A DNA stretch of 6,089 nt from Escherichia phage phiK. The notes under the pieces are model-generated. The model searched no databases, was not told the origin of the DNA, and saw only the letters and a program-made list of their open reading frames with translations. The stretch lies in the sequence record NC_001730.1; one strand, 5' to 3'. The translations under genes were made by a program, and so were the position numbers. Position 1 is the stretch's first letter. Each line of letters opens with the position of its first letter. Shown in pieces: positions 1 through 6,089 of this stretch.

Positions 1-3
1 TTG

Positions 4-31
4 TTGACATTCCCCAATTCCTTATTAGACT
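4..31 (+). promoter_or_regulatory. Candidate sigma70-type promoter upstream of ORF1 (TTGACA N16 TAGACT)
   Basis: Perfect -35 hexamer TTGACA at 4-9, 16-nt spacer, -10-like TAGACT at 26-31 (4/6 to TATAAT). Lies about 30 nt upstream of the AGGAG/ATG of the 64..432 ORF. Motif match only. Confidence 0.25.
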
Positions 32-63
32 CTTGCTTCAACGAAACGAATCAGGAGTCTTTT

Positions 64-432
64 ATGAAGCCCGCTCACTGTCTTACTCATCCCGTACTTG
101 GTTCATGGTTTTTTAAGTGTCCCGTTTATATCCGTTATGAGCACCTTCATCACGGTCGTCTTATCAAGGTTCGCGCTGTTCGTGATTTGTCCCCGCGTCA
201 GCAGCTTATTGCTAACCCTAAAAATTGCTTTGACGTTGTTATTGCTGAGATTGATGTTACTTATGGCTCCATTACTTGGTTTGACTATGAGCATGAGGAG
301 TATGATGAGTTTGAGCCTGATGTTATAAATGGCCTCGTTAACTATATTGATATTCCTCACGTCATTCGTTCTGAGGAAGACCCTACTGTTTCTGTTGATG
401 ATATGGATTGGCTTTATGAAATTGCGGAGTAA
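64..432 (+). CDS. Hypothetical protein (about 122 aa), basic His/Cys-containing N-terminal half and strongly acidic C-terminal half; first ORF of the H-A spacer module
   Basis: ATG 64 preceded by AGGAG at 53-57 (6-nt spacing); stop TAA 430-432. Third codon positions are about 55-60% T by hand count, the same bias as canonical microvirus genes. No similarity to proteins A-H that I can recognise. Confidence 0.5.
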   Translation: MKPAHCLTHPVLGSWFFKCPVYIRYEHLHHGRLIKVRAVRDLSPRQQLIANPKNCFDVVIAEIDVTYGSITWFDYEHEEYDEFEPDVINGLVNYIDIPHVIRSEEDPTVSVDDMDWLYEIAE

Positions 433-435
433 ATT

Positions 436-525
436 ATGGAGACTGTTATCGGAAAATTTATTGCTCTGGCTGTTGTTGCTTTTATGCTGTATGGAATTAC
501 CCGCTTAATTTTGAGGTTCCCGTGA
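436..525 (+). CDS. Hypothetical 29-aa hydrophobic peptide (METVIGKFIALAVVAFMLYGITRLILRFP), predicted single transmembrane helix
   Basis: ATG 436 lies 3 nt after the ORF1 stop, with GGAG at 426-429 (6-nt spacing); stop TGA 523-525. Hydrophobic core FIALAVVAFMLYGI flanked by K7 and R23/R27. Same frame as ORF1. Too short for codon statistics to be decisive. Confidence 0.35.
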   Translation: METVIGKFIALAVVAFMLYGITRLILRFP

Positions 526-734
526 AGTATTTTAGTTTGGTTGATGAACATTATGCTTATTGCCCTGATACGAGGATTTTGCACATTACTCGCAGTCGTG
601 TTTCTGACCCTCGCTACGAGCGTTGCTTTCTTACTGATGAGGAGCATTTTGCGCTATTGGATTGGTTGAAAAACCGTCCAACTTGCGTTAATTCTTGGCA
701 ATCTTCTGAAATACCCTCTATATTGCCCTCATAG
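522..734 (+). CDS. Hypothetical protein (about 70 aa), GTG-initiated, translationally coupled to the upstream peptide ORF
   Basis: GTG 522-524 overlaps the TGA stop of the 29-aa ORF (GTGA); GAGG at 513-516 (5-nt spacing); stop TAG 732-734. No in-frame ATG exists, so the start must be non-ATG if the ORF is real. Third-position T about 50% by hand count. Confidence 0.4.
   Translation: MKYFSLVDEHYAYCPDTRILHITRSRVSDPRYERCFLTDEEHFALLDWLKNRPTCVNSWQSSEIPSILPS
695..724 (+). promoter_or_regulatory. Candidate gene A promoter (PA-like): TTGGCA N18 TATATT
   Basis: -35-like TTGGCA at 695-700 and -10-like TATATT at 719-724, 18-nt spacer. The predicted start site falls inside the downstream hairpin. phiX174 has its PA promoter in the equivalent H-A spacer. 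Motif match only. Confidence 0.3.
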
Positions 735-754
735 TTTCACTACGAGGGCTTTTT
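725..754 (+). terminator. Hairpin plus T5 run, intrinsic-terminator-like, at the end of the spacer module immediately upstream of gene A
   Basis: GCCCTC (725-730) pairs with GAGGGC (744-749); an inner 3-bp helix TAG(732-734)/CTA(740-742) leaves a 5-nt loop; followed by TTTTT 750-754. The 3' arm contains the GAGGG Shine-Dalgarno of gene A. Confidence 0.45.
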
Positions 755-757
755 CGC

Positions 758-2242
758 ATGGCTACCGAAATCTTTTCTGATGTTGTTAAATCTGTTTGGT
801 CGCACGCTACGGCTAAGCACGCCCATCTTCGTATGGCTGTTCAGGTTGATAATCGTAGTCGCCTTCTTTCTGATTTGGTTTACCAGTTGGAAAAACGCCT
901 CTCCGAAGAGACTCATCTGGATGATGAGACTTATGCCCTTTATGAATCTCAGACTGGCCTTTTGGAAGACCATATGGCACTGGTTCGGAAGTGTGCAGCC
1001 CAACTTGATAATAGTAACACTATAGACCACCGCACCCCGTTGGACCCTGAATGTGTTTTTCTTTTTGAGATGATTTGTCCAGGTGTCCGCTATGGTAAGA
1101 CGCTTAATTCGCTTTGGAGTAAGTATGCTGCCCAGTGGCCTGAGAAATTGATTCGTCAGGAGCTCGACATGGTCAAGCCTTTATCCTTTAAGGATGAGGT
1201 TGCCAAGTACATGGAAAAAATGCAGGAAAAAACACGCAAAAACCGCATGACTCAGAAAGTTATCAATGAGATGCGTATTGCTCACCAGAAAGGCTGGTTC
1301 TTTGTGTTTGACACGTTGACCCTTGCCGATGACCGTTTGCAGGCATTCAATGAAAACCCCAATGCTCTTCGTGATTATTTTAGGACTGTTGGTCGAGCTG
1401 TTCTGCGCGCTGAAGGTCGTTCGGTTAAGGATTCCTACAACGACTGCTATCGCTATCTTTGTGTGCCGGAGTTTGGAGGTCAGCACGGTCGTCTTCATTG
1501 GCACGTTGTGCATATGGTGCGGACTCTTCCTTTGGGAAGTCATGACCCTAACTTCGGTCGCCCGGTACGTAATTATCGCCAGATTAACTCGTTCCGTGGC
1601 ATGTGGCCCTATGGCTTTACGCAACCGATAGCCGTTCGTTATCAACATGACGCTTATTCTCGCAAAGGTTGGTTATGGCCTGTTGACAAATCAGGAAAAG
1701 CAATGCAGAGTAAGCCGTATCAGGCGGTCGCATGGTATGTGACCAAGTATGTAGCTAAGCAATCTGACCAGCGTCAGAAGGCTATTACCGAGAGACAAAA
1801 GAAATGCAAGAATCCATTAATGGCAATCTGTCTGAAGAAAGAATTTCGGGTGCGCAGCAGCCGGAAGCTTGGAATGGAGCTCCCGTCAATGGCTCACCTG
1901 AGCAACAAAGTGCTTCTGGAGCTGAGTCGAATCAGCTTCGATTCCAGTCCTCTTTATCAGATAGTGAAAGAGAACGCCAAAAAGCAACTGACCTTGAACA
2001 TCGGCGCGCTGCCTTTGCACGTCATTTTGGATGTGCGCCCGGAAGTGAGAAGCATGTTGAAAGCTATTCGTCGTTTGATGAAAAAGACACCAGAGTTCAA
2101 CTGGCAGAGTTCTATCGCTTCAATGACGGTCACCTTAAAAAATGGGGATATTTCTGATGAAGCACGTCAATACATTATTGATGCAGGAATTACGCCTACT
2201 GATTTGCGAGCTAAAGCGACTCAAACTTTCGGCGGTAAGTGA
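758..2242 (+). CDS. A: Gene A protein, rolling-circle replication initiator (HUH endonuclease), 494 aa
   Basis: ATG 758, stop TGA 2240-2242. Translation aligns with phiX174 A protein from ...DNSNTIDHR... onward: WFFVFDTLTLADDRL, HUH motif GRLHWHVVHM, paired catalytic tyrosines in YVTKYVAK, C-terminal ...ASMT...GGK. N-terminal 80 residues are divergent, as is usual for this family. Confidence 0.95.
   Translation: MATEIFSDVVKSVWSHATAKHAHLRMAVQVDNRSRLLSDLVYQLEKRLSEETHLDDETYALYESQTGLLEDHMALVRKCAAQLDNSNTIDHRTPLDPECVFLFEMICPGVRYGKTLNSLWSKYAAQWPEKLIRQELDMVKPLSFKDEVAKYMEKMQEKTRKNRMTQKVINEMRIAHQKGWFFVFDTLTLADDRLQAFNENPNALRDYFRTVGRAVLRAEGRSVKDSYNDCYRYLCVPEFGGQHGRLHWHVVHMVRTLPLGSHDPNFGRPVRNYRQINSFRGMWPYGFTQPIAVRYQHDAYSRKGWLWPVDKSGKAMQSKPYQAVAWYVTKYVAKQSDQRQKAITERQKKCKNPLMAICLKKEFRVRSSRKLGMELPSMAHLSNKVLLELSRISFDSSPLYQIVKENAKKQLTLNIGALPLHVILDVRPEVRSMLKAIRRLMKKTPEFNWQSSIASMTVTLKNGDISDEARQYIIDAGITPTDLRAKATQTFGGK
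1001..1030 (+). other. Viral (+) strand origin of rolling-circle replication (A-protein recognition and nick site)
   Basis: CAACTTGATAATAGTAACACTATAGACCAC matches the phiX174 origin 30-mer as I recall it (CAACTTGATATTAATAACACTATAGACCAC) at 28/30, both differences in the AT-rich spacer. Lies inside gene A at the homologous codon position (LDNSNTIDH). Expected nick between G1007 and A1008. Confidence 0.85.
1211..2242 (+). CDS. A*: A* protein, in-frame internal restart within gene A (candidate)
   Basis: In-frame ATGs at 1211 and 1220 (MEKMQEKTRKNRM...) align with the phiX174 A* start (MKSRRGFAIQRLMNAMRQAHADGWF versus MQEKTRKNRMTQKVINEMRIAHQKGWF); GGATGAGG-like SD at about 1193-1199. Inferred by homology; which ATG is used is unknown. 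Confidence 0.35.
   Translation: MEKMQEKTRKNRMTQKVINEMRIAHQKGWFFVFDTLTLADDRLQAFNENPNALRDYFRTVGRAVLRAEGRSVKDSYNDCYRYLCVPEFGGQHGRLHWHVVHMVRTLPLGSHDPNFGRPVRNYRQINSFRGMWPYGFTQPIAVRYQHDAYSRKGWLWPVDKSGKAMQSKPYQAVAWYVTKYVAKQSDQRQKAITERQKKCKNPLMAICLKKEFRVRSSRKLGMELPSMAHLSNKVLLELSRISFDSSPLYQIVKENAKKQLTLNIGALPLHVILDVRPEVRSMLKAIRRLMKKTPEFNWQSSIASMTVTLKNGDISDEARQYIIDAGITPTDLRAKATQTFGGK
1804..2157 (+). CDS. B: Gene B protein, internal scaffolding protein, 117 aa, overprinted within gene A in a different frame
   Basis: ATG 1804, stop TGA 2155-2157. C-terminus ...RVQLAEFYRFNDGHLKKWGYF matches phiX174 B ...RIQPAEFYRFHDAEVNTFGYF; acidic, low-complexity N-terminal region typical of B. Confidence 0.9.
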   Translation: MQESINGNLSEERISGAQQPEAWNGAPVNGSPEQQSASGAESNQLRFQSSLSDSERERQKATDLEHRRAAFARHFGCAPGSEKHVESYSSFDEKDTRVQLAEFYRFNDGHLKKWGYF

Positions 2243-3062: not shown

Positions 3063-4358
3063 ATGTCTAATGTACAAACTTCAGCTGAACGTGAAATTGT
3101 TGACCTCTCTCATCTTGCTTTTGACTGTGGCATGATTGGTCGCTTGAAAACTGTTTCATGGACTCCTGTTATCGCTGGCGATTCCTTTGAGCTTGATGCT
3201 GTTGGTGCTTTGCGTCTTTCTCCTCTGCGTCGTGGTTTAGCCATTGATTCTAAGGTTGACTTTTTCACTTTCTATATTCCGCATCGTCATGTTTATGGTG
3301 ATCAGTGGATTCAATTTATGCGTGATGGTGTTGATGCTTCGCCGCTTCCTTCCGTTACTACTACTAAGTATCCGGATGATGCTGGTTATGTTGGTACTAT
3401 TGTTCCTAAGAGCAACCGTATTCCTAAGTTTTTGCATCAGTCTTATCTGAATATTTATAATAACTATTTCCGTGCGCCGTGGATGCCTGAGCGTACTGAA
3501 GCTAATCCTTCAAACTTAGATCGTGATGATTCTCGTTATGGATTCCGTTGTTGCCATCTTAAAACTATTTGGTCTGCTCCTCTTCCTCCGGAAACTAAGC
3601 TCGCTGAGCAAATGGGCATTGAAAGCAATTCCATTGATATTATGGGTTTGCAGGCCGCTTATGCGCAGCTTCACACTGAGCAGGAGCGTACTTATTTTAT
3701 GCAGCGTTACCGTGATGTTATCTCCAGCTTTGGCGGTTCAACCTCCTATGATGCCGATAACCGACCGTTGCTTGTTATGCATACCGATTTTTGGGCTTCC
3801 GGTTACGACGTTGACGGTACCGACCAATCTTCCCTTGGACAGTTTTCGGGGCGAGTTCAACAGACGTTTAAACACTCAGTGCCGCGATTCTTCGTGCCTG
3901 AGCATGGTGTCATGATGACTTTGATGCTGGTTCGCTTCCCGCCTATCAGTCCTTTGGAGCATCATTATCTTGTTGGTCGTAATAATTTGACTTATACCGA
4001 CCTTGCTGGTGACCCGGCTTTGATTGGTAATTTGCCGCCGCGTGAGATTTCTTATCAGGACCTTTTCCGTGATGGTCGCCCGGGCATTAAGATTAAGGTT
4101 GCCGAGTCTATCTGGTATCGTACTCATCCGGATTATGTTAACTACAAGTATCAGTTACTTGAGGGTTTCCCGTTCCTTGATGATGCGCCCGGTACGACTA
4201 GTGGTGATGACCTTCAGAAGGCTATTCTCATTGACCATAATGACTATAATGCCTGTTTCCAGTCTCAGCAGTTGCTTCAGTGGAATAATCAGGCTCGTTA
4301 TAATGTTAATGTTTATCGCCATATTCCTACTGTTCGTGATTCTATTATGACCTCTTAA
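3063..4358 (+). CDS. F: Gene F protein, major capsid protein, 431 aa
   Basis: ATG 3063, stop TAA 4356-4358. Extensive identity to phiX174 F: MSN.QT.AER, TPVIAGDSFE.DAVGALRLSPLRRGLAIDS, YGFRCCHLK, IDIMGLQAAYA, SGYDVDGTDQ.SLGQFSGRVQQT, LPPREIS, QLLQWN, TRDSIMTS. Confidence 0.97.
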   Translation: MSNVQTSAEREIVDLSHLAFDCGMIGRLKTVSWTPVIAGDSFELDAVGALRLSPLRRGLAIDSKVDFFTFYIPHRHVYGDQWIQFMRDGVDASPLPSVTTTKYPDDAGYVGTIVPKSNRIPKFLHQSYLNIYNNYFRAPWMPERTEANPSNLDRDDSRYGFRCCHLKTIWSAPLPPETKLAEQMGIESNSIDIMGLQAAYAQLHTEQERTYFMQRYRDVISSFGGSTSYDADNRPLLVMHTDFWASGYDVDGTDQSSLGQFSGRVQQTFKHSVPRFFVPEHGVMMTLMLVRFPPISPLEHHYLVGRNNLTYTDLAGDPALIGNLPPREISYQDLFRDGRPGIKIKVAESIWYRTHPDYVNYKYQLLEGFPFLDDAPGTTSGDDLQKAILIDHNDYNACFQSQQLLQWNNQARYNVNVYRHIPTVRDSIMTS

Positions 4359-4955: not shown

Positions 4956-5090
4956 AAGGCCGCCGCACTCCTGGTTATGTGTCTGCCCAGTGTAGGGCGG
5001 ACCGAGCCATACGGAGATACCCGATAAACTAGGAACGTGGAAGGCGTTAGCCGCCTTCCCTCCTGCTAAGCCCAAAAAGGAGCTTACAAT
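4956..5090 (+). other. Structured GC-rich G-H intergenic region; candidate complementary (-) strand origin recognised by DnaG primase
   Basis: 135-nt non-coding spacer (I recall about 11 nt in phiX174) with two stable hairpins: 4981-5002 (GTCTGCCC/GGGCGGAC, 6-nt loop, one G-U pair) and 5039-5059 (GGAAGGCG/CGCCTTCC, 5-nt loop). Ends with the H SD AGGAG at 5078-5082. G4-type phages carry a primase-dependent origin in a hairpin-rich spacer between late genes. Assignment here is by analogy. Confidence 0.4.
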
Positions 5091-6089
5091 ATGCTTGGTA
5101 GTATCATTGGAGGCATTGGTTCATCGCTGCTCGGAGGAATTGCTTCCGGCGGTATCTCCAGCCTCCTTAATAAAATGTTCAGTAAAATGCCAGAACATGC
5201 CGCCTCTTCTGCTGGCCTTACTAATGGTCAAGGTACTATTGGTATGGATACTGATGCTGGTATTCAGTCTGCTATTCAGGGTTCTAATGTTCCTCCTGCT
5301 GGTCAATTGCCCGCTTCTAATACTTCTGGTGTTATGGCTGATGCTGGTAATATGATTCGTAATGCTGGTAGAGCTTTGCTTGATGGTACGATTCAGGCTG
5401 GCTCTGATAAGGTTAAAGAGGCTCTTATTGATAAGTTGGTTGGAGGTAATGATGCTAAAGACCGAGGAAAGGCAACCCGTGATTACTTGGCAGCGGCTTT
5501 CCCTGAGCTCAACCCGTGGGAGCGTGCTGGAGCTGGTGCTTCCACTGCCGGGTTAGAGTCTTCTGCTCAGAATCAACAAAAAGAGATGCTTAAAATGCAA
5601 CTGGATAACCAGAAGGATATTGCTAAGATGCAGATGAATAACAATTTGCAGATTGCTGGAATTCAGTCCGCTACATCTCGTCAAAATACGAAGGATTCTG
5701 TTTATGCCCAGAATGAAATGCTTCAGTATAATCAACGTGAGTCGCAGGCACGCGTTGCGTCTATCCTCGCCAACACTGACCTTACGACTAAGCAGGCCAC
5801 CCATGAAATTATGAGGATGGCTCTTACTCGTGCTCAGGAAACTGGTCAGCATTTGACTAACTCTCAGATTATGGCTTTGGAGAAAAAGGTTTATGCAGAA
5901 ATTGGAAAAATTCATCAAGATACTCAAAATTCTCGTTATGGTAGCTCTCAAGTTACTGCCGCAGCGAAAGACGTTACGAATATGATTACTGACGCCTCTT
6001 CAGGTCTTGCTGATTGGGCCTCCCAGCAGTGGGATTCGTTCTTTAAGGATGGCAAGTCTGATGGCATTCCTCTCAATACTAGAAAATAA
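5091..6089 (+). CDS. H: Gene H protein, minor spike / DNA pilot protein, 332 aa
   Basis: ATG 5091 (AGGAG 5078-5082), stop TAA 6087-6089. Matches phiX174 H: glycine-rich N-terminus, SAIQGSNVP, TRDYLAAAFPELN.WERAGA, KMQLDNQK, IAGIQSATSRQNTKD.VYAQNEML, ARVASI, QNSRYGSS, KDGK.DGI. Confidence 0.95.
   Translation: MLGSIIGGIGSSLLGGIASGGISSLLNKMFSKMPEHAASSAGLTNGQGTIGMDTDAGIQSAIQGSNVPPAGQLPASNTSGVMADAGNMIRNAGRALLDGTIQAGSDKVKEALIDKLVGGNDAKDRGKATRDYLAAAFPELNPWERAGAGASTAGLESSAQNQQKEMLKMQLDNQKDIAKMQMNNNLQIAGIQSATSRQNTKDSVYAQNEMLQYNQRESQARVASILANTDLTTKQATHEIMRMALTRAQETGQHLTNSQIMALEKKVYAEIGKIHQDTQNSRYGSSQVTAAAKDVTNMITDASSGLADWASQQWDSFFKDGKSDGIPLNTRK

What the first reader, a model, noticed from the sequence alone, without database searches (positions are those of the whole stretch)
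1..757. About 750-nt H-A spacer holds a compact three-ORF module with gene-like codon bias
Gene A starts at 758 and H ends at the last base of the window, so on the closed circle the H-A spacer is about 757 nt; I recall tens of nt for phiX174. It contains three consecutive same-strand ORFs (64..432, 436..525, 522..734), each with a Shine-Dalgarno at correct spacing and tightly coupled (3-nt gap, then a GTGA stop/start overlap). Third-position T content is roughly 57%, 41% and 50% by hand count, matching the bias of genes A-H, which argues for long-standing translation and against a recent acquisition. The module is bracketed by a perfect TTGACA -35 box (4-9) and a hairpin plus T5 (725-754). 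None of the three proteins resembles A-H or any family I can name. Because capsid volume tightly limits microvirus genome size, 750 nt of retained sequence suggests function, possibly an accessory or host-interaction module.
Basis: partly seen in the sequence, partly recalled or inferred. Interest (0 to 1): 0.75.

Follow-up and report, generated by a model that had tools for sequence, protein, structure and literature searches.

The report
Three unannotated genes in alpha3-like microviruses
The 757-base "spacer" between genes H and A of this alpha3-like microvirus holds three real protein-coding genes that are conserved across the genus, have no known relatives or function, and are missing from nearly all database records.

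Summary
Window 1-757 holds three same-strand ORFs with Shine-Dalgarno sites: 64-432, 436-525 and 522-734. They are tightly coupled and have T-rich third codon positions like the core genes.

The coding interpretation is strongly supported. The ORFs are intact in every alpha3-like (Alphatrevirus) genome examined, apart from a 1-nt deletion in lab phage St-1 and frameshifts in the 1992 alpha3 record. Substitutions are codon-periodic. pN/pS is 0.28 for ORF1, 0.38 for ORF2 and 0.12 for ORF3, against 0.10 for gene A. Synonymous divergence equals that of gene A, so the module is old.

The last ~65 nt (695-757) match the whole phiX174/G4 H-A spacer: the pA promoter overlapping the T_H hairpin. The alpha3-specific part is therefore promoter P1 (4-31) plus ORF1-3.

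ORF3 is 58 aa in all relatives. The 70-aa form comes from a window-only TGA>TGG change inside the second promoter's -35 box.

No homologue exists outside ~6-kb alpha3-like contigs, and no Pfam, PHROG, PADLOC or PDB match was found.

ORF1 has a strongly constrained N-terminal domain and a hypervariable surface helix. ORF2 is a 29-aa membrane peptide.

Function is undetermined. My best guess is an early accessory operon acting on the host or on competing phages.

The parts
4..31 (+). P1: sigma-70 promoter-like site (TTGACA, 16-nt spacer, TAGACT) directly after the H stop codon
   Evidence: Joint best match in the genome, 10 of 12 positions. TTGAC is present in all 16 aligned relatives; the sixth base is T in two. 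Pairwise divergence is 0.135, against synonymous divergence of 0.34-0.44. Promoter activity is not shown.
53..57 (+). Shine-Dalgarno sequence (AGGAG) of ORF1
   Evidence: Lies 6 nt before the ATG at 64. The 53-66 segment diverges by only 0.058.
64..432 (+). ORF1: 122-aa cytosolic protein with a basic, highly conserved N-terminal half (1-65), an acidic C-terminal half (net charge -16), a hypervariable helix at about residues 85-100, and a conserved acidic-hydrophobic C-terminal tail (DDMDWLYEIAE)
   Evidence: Intact in 16 of 17 distinct relatives. pN/pS is 0.28 overall, 0.02-0.18 in the N-terminal half and about 1 at residues 85-100. The AF2 model has pLDDT 85.9 and pTM 0.78. Homologues occur only in alpha3-like contigs.
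426..429 (+). Shine-Dalgarno sequence (GGAG) of ORF2, inside the end of ORF1
   Evidence: It is conserved in nearly all relatives.
436..525 (+). ORF2: 29-aa peptide with one hydrophobic helix and a basic C-terminus, predicted to be a single-pass inner-membrane peptide
   Evidence: Open in all 17 distinct sequences. Changes in the hydrophobic core are conservative. GRAVY is 1.44. Codon-position evidence is weak: 13/4/12 variable sites, p = 0.08.
513..516 (+). Shine-Dalgarno sequence (GAGG) of ORF3, inside the end of ORF2
   Evidence: ID32 and NC29 use a different junction with an ATG start and keep the close coupling.
522..698 (+). ORF3 conserved core: 58 codons (522-695) plus the position of the stop codon used by all relatives (TGA there, TGG here at 696-698)
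   Evidence: pN/pS is 0.12, similar to gene A at 0.10. It is 58 aa in all 18 relatives and in 9 metagenomic protein clusters. The AF2 model shows four strands followed by a helix, pLDDT 73.6.
699..734 (+). Window-specific 12-codon extension of ORF3, ending at TAG 732-734 inside the 5' arm of the hairpin
   Evidence: Absent from every relative. Predicted disordered, pLDDT below 50.
695..724 (+). P2: promoter-like site (TTGGCA, 18-nt spacer, TATATT), the counterpart of phiX174/G4 promoter pA. Relatives have a perfect TTGACA whose TGA is the ORF3 stop codon.
   Evidence: Same layout as phiX174 and G4.
725..754 (+). 10-bp hairpin (725-734 with 740-749) plus T5: the counterpart of terminator T_H. 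Its 3' arm contains gene A's Shine-Dalgarno sequence (GAGGG, 744-748).
   Evidence: 93% of cells paired across 13 sequences. Two pairs show compensatory changes. Slid controls give 33-55% pairing. RNA folding energy is -15.4 kcal/mol, z = -2.5.

Best explanation
SHOWN. The H-A 'spacer' of alpha3-like microviruses is a three-gene module, ORF1-ORF2-ORF3, kept under purifying selection throughout the genus.
- The genes are translationally coupled: a 3-nt gap, then a 4-nt overlap.
- A conserved near-consensus sigma-70 promoter-like site (P1) sits immediately after gene H.
- The module is followed by the same overlapping promoter/terminator element (pA/T_H) that makes up the whole H-A spacer of phiX174 and G4.

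INFERRED.
- Host RNA polymerase transcribes ORF1-3 from P1 as soon as double-stranded replicative form exists. Read-through of late transcripts past H also covers them.
- These transcripts contain the full hairpin and mostly stop before gene A.
- Transcripts from P2 start about 7 nt after the -10 box, near 731, inside the hairpin's 5' arm. They therefore lack the terminator and an occluded Shine-Dalgarno sequence, and they express gene A. The transcription start annotated in phiX174 lies in the equivalent place.

INFERRED, lower confidence. The three proteins are not virion or core replication parts, because phiX174 and G4 do without them. They form an accessory unit acting at the interface with the host or with competing phages, for example in anti-defence or superinfection exclusion.
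- ORF1 would be the specificity component, through its hypervariable surface helix and allele replacement.
- ORF2 would be an inner-membrane peptide.
- ORF3 would be the conserved partner.
For: Coding:
- There are no stops or indels in the three frames across 13-19 distinct genomes.
- pN/pS is 0.28, 0.38 and 0.12, against about 1 or higher in other frames and 0.10 for gene A.
- In the ORF1 N-terminal half, 40 of 58 variable codon columns vary only synonymously.
- An in-frame insertion of about 110 nt yields a 154-aa ORF1.
- The ORF3 start switches between GTG and ATG while the coupling is kept.
- A divergent lineage (L016) keeps all three ORFs.

Age: synonymous divergence equals that of gene A, and third-position T matches the core genes.

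Transcription layout:
- The two best promoter matches in the genome flank the ORFs.
- The non-coding flanks diverge by 0.10-0.135, against synonymous divergence of 0.34-0.44.
- The hairpin shows covariation.
- phiX174 and G4 have an identical -35/-10/hairpin/T-run/ATG layout, and the phiX174 RefSeq transcription start at 3962 lies inside the 5' arm.
- In phiX174, T_H is reported to overlap pA (bioRxiv 10.1101/2020.03.05.979765).

Accessory role:
- The module is absent from phiX174 and G4.
- ORF1 is disrupted in the viable lab phage St-1.
- ORF1 residues 85-100 have pN/pS of about 1 on a confidently folded helix.
- In L016, ORF1 is 38% identical to the window while H is 85%, A 81% and ORF3 90%.
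Against: - There is no expression data: no transcript, ribosome-profiling or mass-spectrometry evidence. P1, P2 and the terminator are consensus or homology calls only.
- ORF3 is as constrained as essential gene A. That fits a core function at least as well as an accessory one.
- pN/pS of about 1 in the ORF1 patch may be relaxed constraint rather than an arms race.
- ORF2's codon-position signal is weak (p = 0.08), and its low synonymous divergence (0.16) is unexplained.
- The St-1 frameshift could be a sequencing error.
- The primary alpha3 and comparative papers (Kodaira 1992, Rokyta 2006) could not be read.
Confidence: 0.7

Rival explanations
1. ORF1-3 are real genes, but they serve the phage's own DNA cycle or gene A control. 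Examples are single-stranded DNA binding, membrane attachment of the replicative form, or timing of the switch to strand packaging. In this reading they are lineage-specific core genes rather than a host or competitor interface.
For: - They sit immediately upstream of gene A and are co-oriented with it.
- In NC35, the P2 -10 box and the hairpin's 5' arm are deleted, so gene A must be co-transcribed with ORF1-3.
- ORF3's pN/pS of 0.12 is close to gene A's 0.10.
- ORF1 pairs a basic N-terminal domain with an acidic C-terminal tail, an arrangement recalled from SSB-type proteins (own knowledge).
- In phiX174 the H-A junction is implicated in conversion of single-stranded DNA to replicative form and in the 'reduction effect' (PMC3606162, PMC8310164).
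Against: - phiX174 and G4 replicate without these genes.
- St-1 is viable with a frameshifted ORF1.
- ORF1's hypervariable helix and 38%-identity allele are unusual for a housekeeping replication factor.
Confidence: 0.22
2. Only ORF1 and ORF3 are translated. The ORF2 frame is open because the 436-510 stretch is conserved at the nucleotide level for another reason, such as a cis-acting DNA or RNA element, or recombinational homogenisation.
For: - Positions 436-495 form the most conserved stretch of the spacer, at 96% pairwise identity.
- Synonymous divergence is 0.16, against 0.34-0.44 in the flanking ORFs.
- Codon-position counts of 13/4/12 are not significant, p = 0.08.
- At 29 aa, the ORF is too short for strong statistics.
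Against: - The ATG and the GGAG at correct spacing are conserved in all sequences.
- The frame is open in 17 distinct sequences despite three different 3' junctions, each of which keeps the start of ORF3 coupled.
- Amino-acid changes in the hydrophobic core are all conservative: V/I, F/L and M/I.
- No conserved secondary structure or covariation was found, and DNA folding is weaker than in shuffled sequences.
- There is no Rfam match.
Confidence: 0.12
3. The region is a non-coding spacer whose conservation reflects cis-acting functions only, such as the complementary-strand origin, a reduction sequence, or transcription signals. The ORFs would then be fortuitous.
For: - Nearly all GenBank and RefSeq records annotate nothing here.
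- A 2026 paper on an alpha3-like phage lists only the 11 canonical genes (PMC13029530).
- The H-A junction does have cis-acting roles in phiX174.
Against: - Substitutions are codon-periodic, and pN/pS is far below 1 only in the proposed frames.
- There are no frameshifts across the genus.
- The one large insertion is in frame.
- The complementary-strand origin lies in the G-H spacer at 4956-5090, which aligns with G4's annotated origin.
Confidence: 0.03
4. The module is a recently acquired moron, picked up horizontally from a host, plasmid or other phage.
For: It has a promoter-genes-terminator layout and sits between two core genes that are adjacent in sister genera.
Against: - No homologue was found in 50,697 phage records, 5,426 E. 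coli genomes, 185,579 species genomes, or protein libraries of 1.8 to 5.8 billion sequences.
- Composition and third-position T match the core genes.
- Synonymous divergence equals that of gene A.
- The module is present in every alpha3-like genome examined.
Confidence: 0.03

Closest known systems
phiX174/G4 H-A intergenic element (promoter pA overlapping terminator T_H)
   Same: Window 695-757 has the same order and spacing: a -35 box, 17-18 nt, a -10 box, a GC-rich hairpin directly after the -10 box, a T-run, and the gene A ATG within 3-4 nt. Gene A's Shine-Dalgarno sequence lies in the 3' arm.
   Different: In alpha3-like phages this element is only the last ~65 nt of the interval. About 690 nt upstream of it, P1 plus three ORFs, have no counterpart in phiX174 or G4. 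In this window the -35 box is TTGGCA, and ORF3 reads through it into the hairpin.
Phage morons (autonomous promoter-gene-terminator insertions between core genes, as in lambdoid phages; from own knowledge of Hendrix and colleagues' definition)
   Same: Extra genes sit between two genes that are adjacent in related phages. They are preceded by their own promoter-like site and followed by an intrinsic terminator-like hairpin.
   Different: Composition and codon bias are the same as the rest of the genome. The module is as old as the genus, occurs in a strictly lytic 6-kb ssDNA phage, and has no identifiable donor. Its terminator is the ancestral T_H, not an imported one.
Hypothetical proteins QBZ71502-QBZ71504 of Escherichia phage Lilleven (MK629527)
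   Same: These are orthologues of ORF1-3 at the same position, with lengths of 122, 29 and 58 aa. It is the only named database record found.
   Different: They are automatic annotations. The describing paper does not discuss them (PMC7552041), and no evidence of selection, expression or function is given.
Small phage inner-membrane superinfection-exclusion proteins (e.g. T4 Imm; own knowledge)
   Same: ORF2 is a small, predicted single-pass membrane peptide that is probably expressed early.
   Different: There is no sequence or structural similarity, and no functional test has been done.

Membership tests
phiX174-type pA/T_H overlapping promoter-terminator | -35 and -10 hexamers followed directly by a GC-rich hairpin and a T-run that abuts the gene A start | tested here: met
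   Window 695-760 aligns with the phiX174 and G4 H-A spacers in the same layout. The hairpin is conserved with compensatory changes.
phiX174-type pA/T_H overlapping promoter-terminator | The transcription start lies inside the 5' arm of the hairpin, so pA transcripts escape T_H | not testable with these tools
   phiX174's RefSeq transcription start at 3962 is in the 5' arm. For the window, a start near 731 is inferred from the -10 box ending at 724.
Moron (autonomous accessory transcription unit) | Inserted between genes that are adjacent in related phages | tested here: met
   The H-A interval is 757 nt here, against 63 nt in phiX174 and 58 nt in G4.
Moron (autonomous accessory transcription unit) | Own promoter and own terminator | tested here: inconclusive
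   P1 is a conserved 10-of-12 consensus match. The terminator-like hairpin is present, but it is the ancestral T_H. No activity data exist.
Moron (autonomous accessory transcription unit) | Composition differs from the surrounding genome, or a donor is identifiable (recent horizontal origin) | tested here: not met
   Third-position T and codon scores match the core genes. Synonymous divergence equals that of gene A. No homologue exists anywhere outside the genus.
G4-type primase-dependent complementary-strand origin located in the H-A spacer | Sequence homology to the G4 origin hairpins | tested here: not met
   The homologous sequence is in the G-H spacer, 4956-5090. No stable or conserved structure was found at 385-530.
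DNA-mimic anti-restriction proteins (Ocr/ArdA type) | Sequence or fold similarity, with a uniformly acidic DNA-like surface | tested here: not met
PUR/Whirly-like repeat of four strands and a helix (single-stranded nucleic-acid binding) | Four antiparallel strands followed by a helix, with significant structural or profile similarity | tested here: inconclusive
Known anti-phage-defence or phage protein families (PADLOC, PHROGs, Pfam, NCBIfam) | A profile match at or near the curated thresholds | tested here: not met
   The best hits have E = 0.047-0.2 and are far below the cut-offs.

The most novel reading that the evidence does not exclude
ORF1-3 are the first accessory, non-structural and non-replicative gene system recognised in the phiX174-type model microviruses. 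They would form a three-protein unit built from new folds that blocks superinfecting microviruses or neutralises a host defence. ORF1's hypervariable helix would set target specificity, and the 29-aa peptide would anchor or act at the inner membrane.
Probability: 0.3. Interest if true: 0.75.

Novelty: new member of a known kind. Interest (0 to 1): 0.5.

Why it matters
The phiX174-type microviruses are treated as fully annotated 11-gene genomes. They serve as reference systems for genome synthesis, experimental evolution and, recently, generative genome design.

Showing that one of the three classical clades carries three more genes under purifying selection changes the gene count for that clade. 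These genes take up about 11% of a genome whose size is limited by the capsid. They are absent from RefSeq annotation and from the papers I could search.

The finding also flags a systematic annotation gap. It offers three ORFan protein families that are easy to test, because the genomes are small and synthesizable and the hosts are E. coli K-12, B and C. Finally, it gives a concrete case of how the pA/T_H element was kept while a cassette was added upstream of it.

Tried and rejected
1. Profile libraries. Pfam, PHROGs, PADLOC and NCBIfam gave nothing for any of the three ORFs.
2. Protein homology searches.
   - Word-indexed searches with ORF1, with ORF3 and with an ORF1 profile that included the 38%-identity allele found only alpha3-like contigs.
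   - An exhaustive HMMER search of 1.84 billion cluster representatives found 3 representatives, all alpha3-like.
4. Internal duplication. hhalign of ORF1 against ORF3 was negative, as was BLASTP against the phage's own proteins.
5. A donor. DNA search of E. coli genomes, tblastn of phages, and scans of species genomes and metagenomes found none.
6. A structural explanation for the very high nucleotide conservation of ORF2. There was no covariation and no stable fold, and no Rfam hit.
7. The idea that the spacer holds the complementary-strand origin. Rejected, because the origin is in the G-H spacer.
8. Anti-restriction by DNA mimicry. There is no support, and the genome has no EcoKI or EcoBI sites.
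9. Literature. Seven searches found no paper describing these ORFs. Rokyta et al. 2006 and Bernal et al. 2003 are not held, and Kodaira et al. 1992 was not found. Earlier discussion in those papers therefore cannot be excluded. The alpha3 H-gene record M25640 already marks four ribosome-binding sites here.
10. A leucine-rich ORF in another frame (329-508) is open in the relatives, but all of its changes are non-synonymous in that frame. I rejected it as a gene.
Full report
WHAT THE WINDOW IS

The 6089-nt window is a complete alpha3-like microvirus genome (genus Alphatrevirus). It has the canonical genes: A at 758-2242, then B, K, C, D, E, J, F, G, and H at 5091-6089. The 1-757 stretch matches 25 phage records, all alpha3-like, at 80-89% identity. 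The best match is ID21 at 89%. From memory only, the length equals that of phiK, which is not in the collection.

THE OBSERVATION

- ORF1 is at 64-432 (122 aa), with AGGAG at 53-57.
- ORF2 is at 436-525 (29 aa), with GGAG at 426-429, and starts 3 nt after the ORF1 stop.
- ORF3 is at 522-734 (70 aa, GTG start), with GAGG at 513-516 and a GTGA overlap with the ORF2 stop.
- TTGACA is at 4-9.
- A hairpin (725-734 with 740-749) is followed by T5.

Third-position T is 0.59, 0.45 and 0.50. The core genes range from 0.37 to 0.66. The alternative frames of ORF1 and ORF3 give 0.20-0.33, though one alternative frame of ORF2 reaches 0.54. A 122-codon ORF occurs in 0.85% of dinucleotide shuffles. The three ORFs cover 88% of the interval.

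ARE THEY GENES?

I fetched the H-A interval from 14 database genomes and from several metagenomic and IMG/VR contigs.

All three frames are open in all of them, with two exceptions.
- St-1 has a single 1-nt deletion in ORF1.
- The 1992 alpha3 record X60322 has frameshifts that are absent from the resequenced alpha3 record DQ085810.2.

Pooled pairwise Nei-Gojobori estimates on codon alignments of 16-18 distinct sequences:

| Region | pN | pS | pN/pS |
|---|---|---|---|
| ORF1 | 0.123 | 0.436 | 0.28 |
| ORF2 | 0.059 | 0.157 | 0.38 |
| ORF3 | 0.040 | 0.335 | 0.12 |
| Gene A, first 130 codons, same genomes | 0.036 | 0.343 | 0.10 |

In the two alternative frames the ratio is about 1 to 4.5, and stops number from tens to hundreds.

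Variable sites by codon position are 49/37/98 for ORF1 (p = 4e-8), 16/11/33 for ORF3 (p = 0.001) and 13/4/12 for ORF2 (p = 0.08). In the N-terminal half of ORF1, 40 of 58 variable codon columns vary only synonymously.

Further support comes from structural changes that preserve the frames.
- An insertion of about 110 nt in one lineage is in frame, brings its own Shine-Dalgarno sequence and ATG, and gives a 154-aa ORF1.
- ID32, NC29 and the divergent contig L016 have different ORF2/ORF3 junctions. These use ATG instead of GTG and different ORF2 C-termini, and all keep the two genes closely coupled.
- Gene callers used on public assemblies predict all three ORFs.

Because synonymous divergence equals that of gene A, the module has diverged together with the rest of the genome. 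It is not a recent arrival.

I conclude that ORF1 and ORF3 are protein-coding beyond reasonable doubt. ORF2 probably is, but its evidence is weaker.

WHAT FLANKS THEM

The two best sigma-70 matches in the genome, each 10 of 12 positions, are 4-31 (P1) and 695-724 (P2).

The phiX174 H-A spacer (63 nt) and the G4 H-A spacer (58 nt) consist of a -35 box, a 17-nt spacer, a -10 box, a GC-rich hairpin directly after the -10 box, a T-run and the gene A ATG. Window 695-760 aligns with them in the same layout. The last ~65 nt of the alpha3-like interval are therefore the counterpart of the entire phiX174/G4 spacer, that is, promoter pA overlapping terminator T_H. That overlap is reported for phiX174 (bioRxiv 10.1101/2020.03.05.979765).

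The hairpin is paired in 93% of cells across 13 sequences. Two pairs show compensatory changes (UA to AU, and A.C to AU or GC). Slid controls give 33-55% pairing.

In phiX174 the annotated transcription start, 3962, lies inside the 5' arm of the hairpin. By analogy, P2 transcripts would begin near 731. They would lack the terminator and would leave gene A's Shine-Dalgarno sequence (GAGGG, 744-748, in the 3' arm) free. Transcripts arriving from upstream would carry the full hairpin.

The non-coding flanks diverge by 0.10-0.135, about one third of the synonymous rate, so they are constrained.

The alpha3-specific novelty is thus P1, a leader and ORF1-3, about 690 nt placed upstream of a retained pA/T_H element. 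The start of P1 (TTGACA followed by CCCAAT) resembles the phiX174 pA -35 region. This hints at a promoter duplication, but the match is too short to rely on.

FEATURES SPECIFIC TO THIS GENOME

In every relative, ORF3 is 58 aa and its TGA stop lies inside the perfect TTGACA -35 box of P2. Here the box reads TTGGCA (TGG at 696-698). ORF3 therefore runs 12 codons further, to TAG at 732-734 inside the hairpin's 5' arm.

The extension is predicted to be disordered. It is probably a by-product of the base change. A ribosome stopping there could hinder hairpin formation and couple gene A expression to ORF3, but this is speculation.

THE PROTEINS

ORF1
- The N-terminal half (1-65) is basic, with pI 9.3. 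The C-terminal half is very acidic, with net charge -16.
- AF2 gives a beta-rich two-subdomain model with pLDDT 85.9 and pTM 0.78. Only two of the five models are confident, and the alignment is shallow.
- The independent BFVD model of the Lilleven orthologue superposes at TM 0.96.
- Sliding-window pN/pS is 0.02-0.18 over residues 1-65 and rises to 0.8-1.1 over residues about 85-100. That patch is a confidently modelled helix plus the loop after it. The ratio falls again over the conserved C-terminal tail, DDMDWLYEIAE.
- In contig L016, ORF1 is only 38% identical to the window. On the same contig H is 85%, A 81%, ORF3 90% and ORF2 72% identical. ORF1 is therefore by far the fastest-evolving gene, or it is exchanged as alleles.

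ORF2 is a 29-aa peptide with one hydrophobic helix and a basic C-terminus. By the positive-inside rule the C-terminus would be cytoplasmic.

ORF3 is predicted as four strands followed by a helix (pLDDT 73.6).

MECHANISM

Shown: a conserved, coupled three-gene module lies between a conserved promoter-like site and the ancestral pA/T_H element.

Inferred: early, constitutive transcription from P1 plus late read-through, termination before gene A, and gene A expressed from P2.

Inferred with low confidence: an accessory role at the host or competitor interface. The reasons are:
- phiX174 and G4 lack the module;
- St-1 tolerates a broken ORF1;
- ORF1 combines a rigid core with a hypervariable surface helix and deep allelic divergence.

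The main rival is a lineage-specific role in the phage's own DNA cycle or in gene A control. Supporting it are ORF3's constraint, which equals that of gene A, the position next to A, the NC35 deletion that fuses the transcription units, and the weak resemblance to a PUR-type fold.

A purely non-coding reading is rejected. So is the idea that the complementary-strand origin lies here: that origin is in the G-H spacer, 4956-5090, which aligns with G4's annotated origin.

NOVELTY

The long H-A interval is visible in every alpha3-like record.
- The alpha3 H-gene record M25640 marks four ribosome-binding sites in it.
- Lilleven annotates three hypothetical proteins there.
- All other records annotate nothing.
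- A 2026 paper on an alpha3-like phage lists only the 11 canonical genes (PMC13029530).
- The Lilleven paper does not mention the three proteins (PMC7552041).
- I found no paper describing them.

I could not read Kodaira 1992 or Rokyta 2006. I therefore rate this as a new member of a known kind: unannotated ORFan accessory genes in a phage. The evidence for selection and the dissection of the layout appear to be new. The function remains open.

Noticed in passing
window 4956-5090 (G-H spacer): This spacer aligns along its length with phage G4's F-G spacer, which carries the annotated RNA primer and complementary-strand origin. The primase-type minus-strand origin therefore sits between G and H in this genome, at a different position from G4.
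   Followed up: partly
whole window: GATC occurs only twice (3300 and 3519), against about 23 expected from base composition. There are no EcoKI or EcoBI recognition sites and no Chi sites.
   Followed up: partly
window 436-495 (ORF2 body): This is the most conserved nucleotide stretch of the interval, at 96% pairwise identity. Synonymous divergence is 0.16, against 0.34-0.44 in the neighbouring ORFs. No conserved secondary structure, covariation or Rfam match explains it.
   Followed up: yes
L011 (St-1, GQ149088), near position 229: A single-base deletion frameshifts ORF1 in the lab phage St-1. Its closest wild relative, Lilleven, has an intact ORF1. This is either real loss in culture or a sequencing error.
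   Followed up: partly
L004 (alpha3, X60322) versus L012 (alpha3, DQ085810.2): The 1992 alpha3 sequence has frameshifts that split ORF1. They are absent from the resequenced alpha3 genome. This probably explains why the ORF was never annotated in the reference record.
   Followed up: partly
L029 1440-1600 (ERZ17996440, 6217-nt contig): An insertion of about 110 nt just downstream of P1 adds a new Shine-Dalgarno sequence and ATG and an in-frame 32-aa acidic N-terminal extension to ORF1 (154 aa). The same form occurs on several contigs of 6.2-6.3 kb.
   Followed up: partly
L015 (NC35), around 700-729: A 29-nt deletion removes the -10 box of P2 and the 5' arm of the hairpin. In NC35, gene A presumably depends on transcription through ORF1-3.
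   Followed up: no
L016 820-1209 (SRR20337160 contig): This ORF1 allele is only 38% identical to the window, in a genome whose H, A, ORF2 and ORF3 are 72-90% identical. It retains the motifs AHR.xHP, G.W.FK.PVY, ANPKNC, RSE and the C-terminal D.D..YE.
   Followed up: yes
window 329-508, another + frame: A leucine-rich ORF overlaps the end of ORF1 and all of ORF2. Its 3' part (393-510) is open in the relatives, but every substitution in it is non-synonymous in that frame, so it is not a gene.
   Followed up: yes
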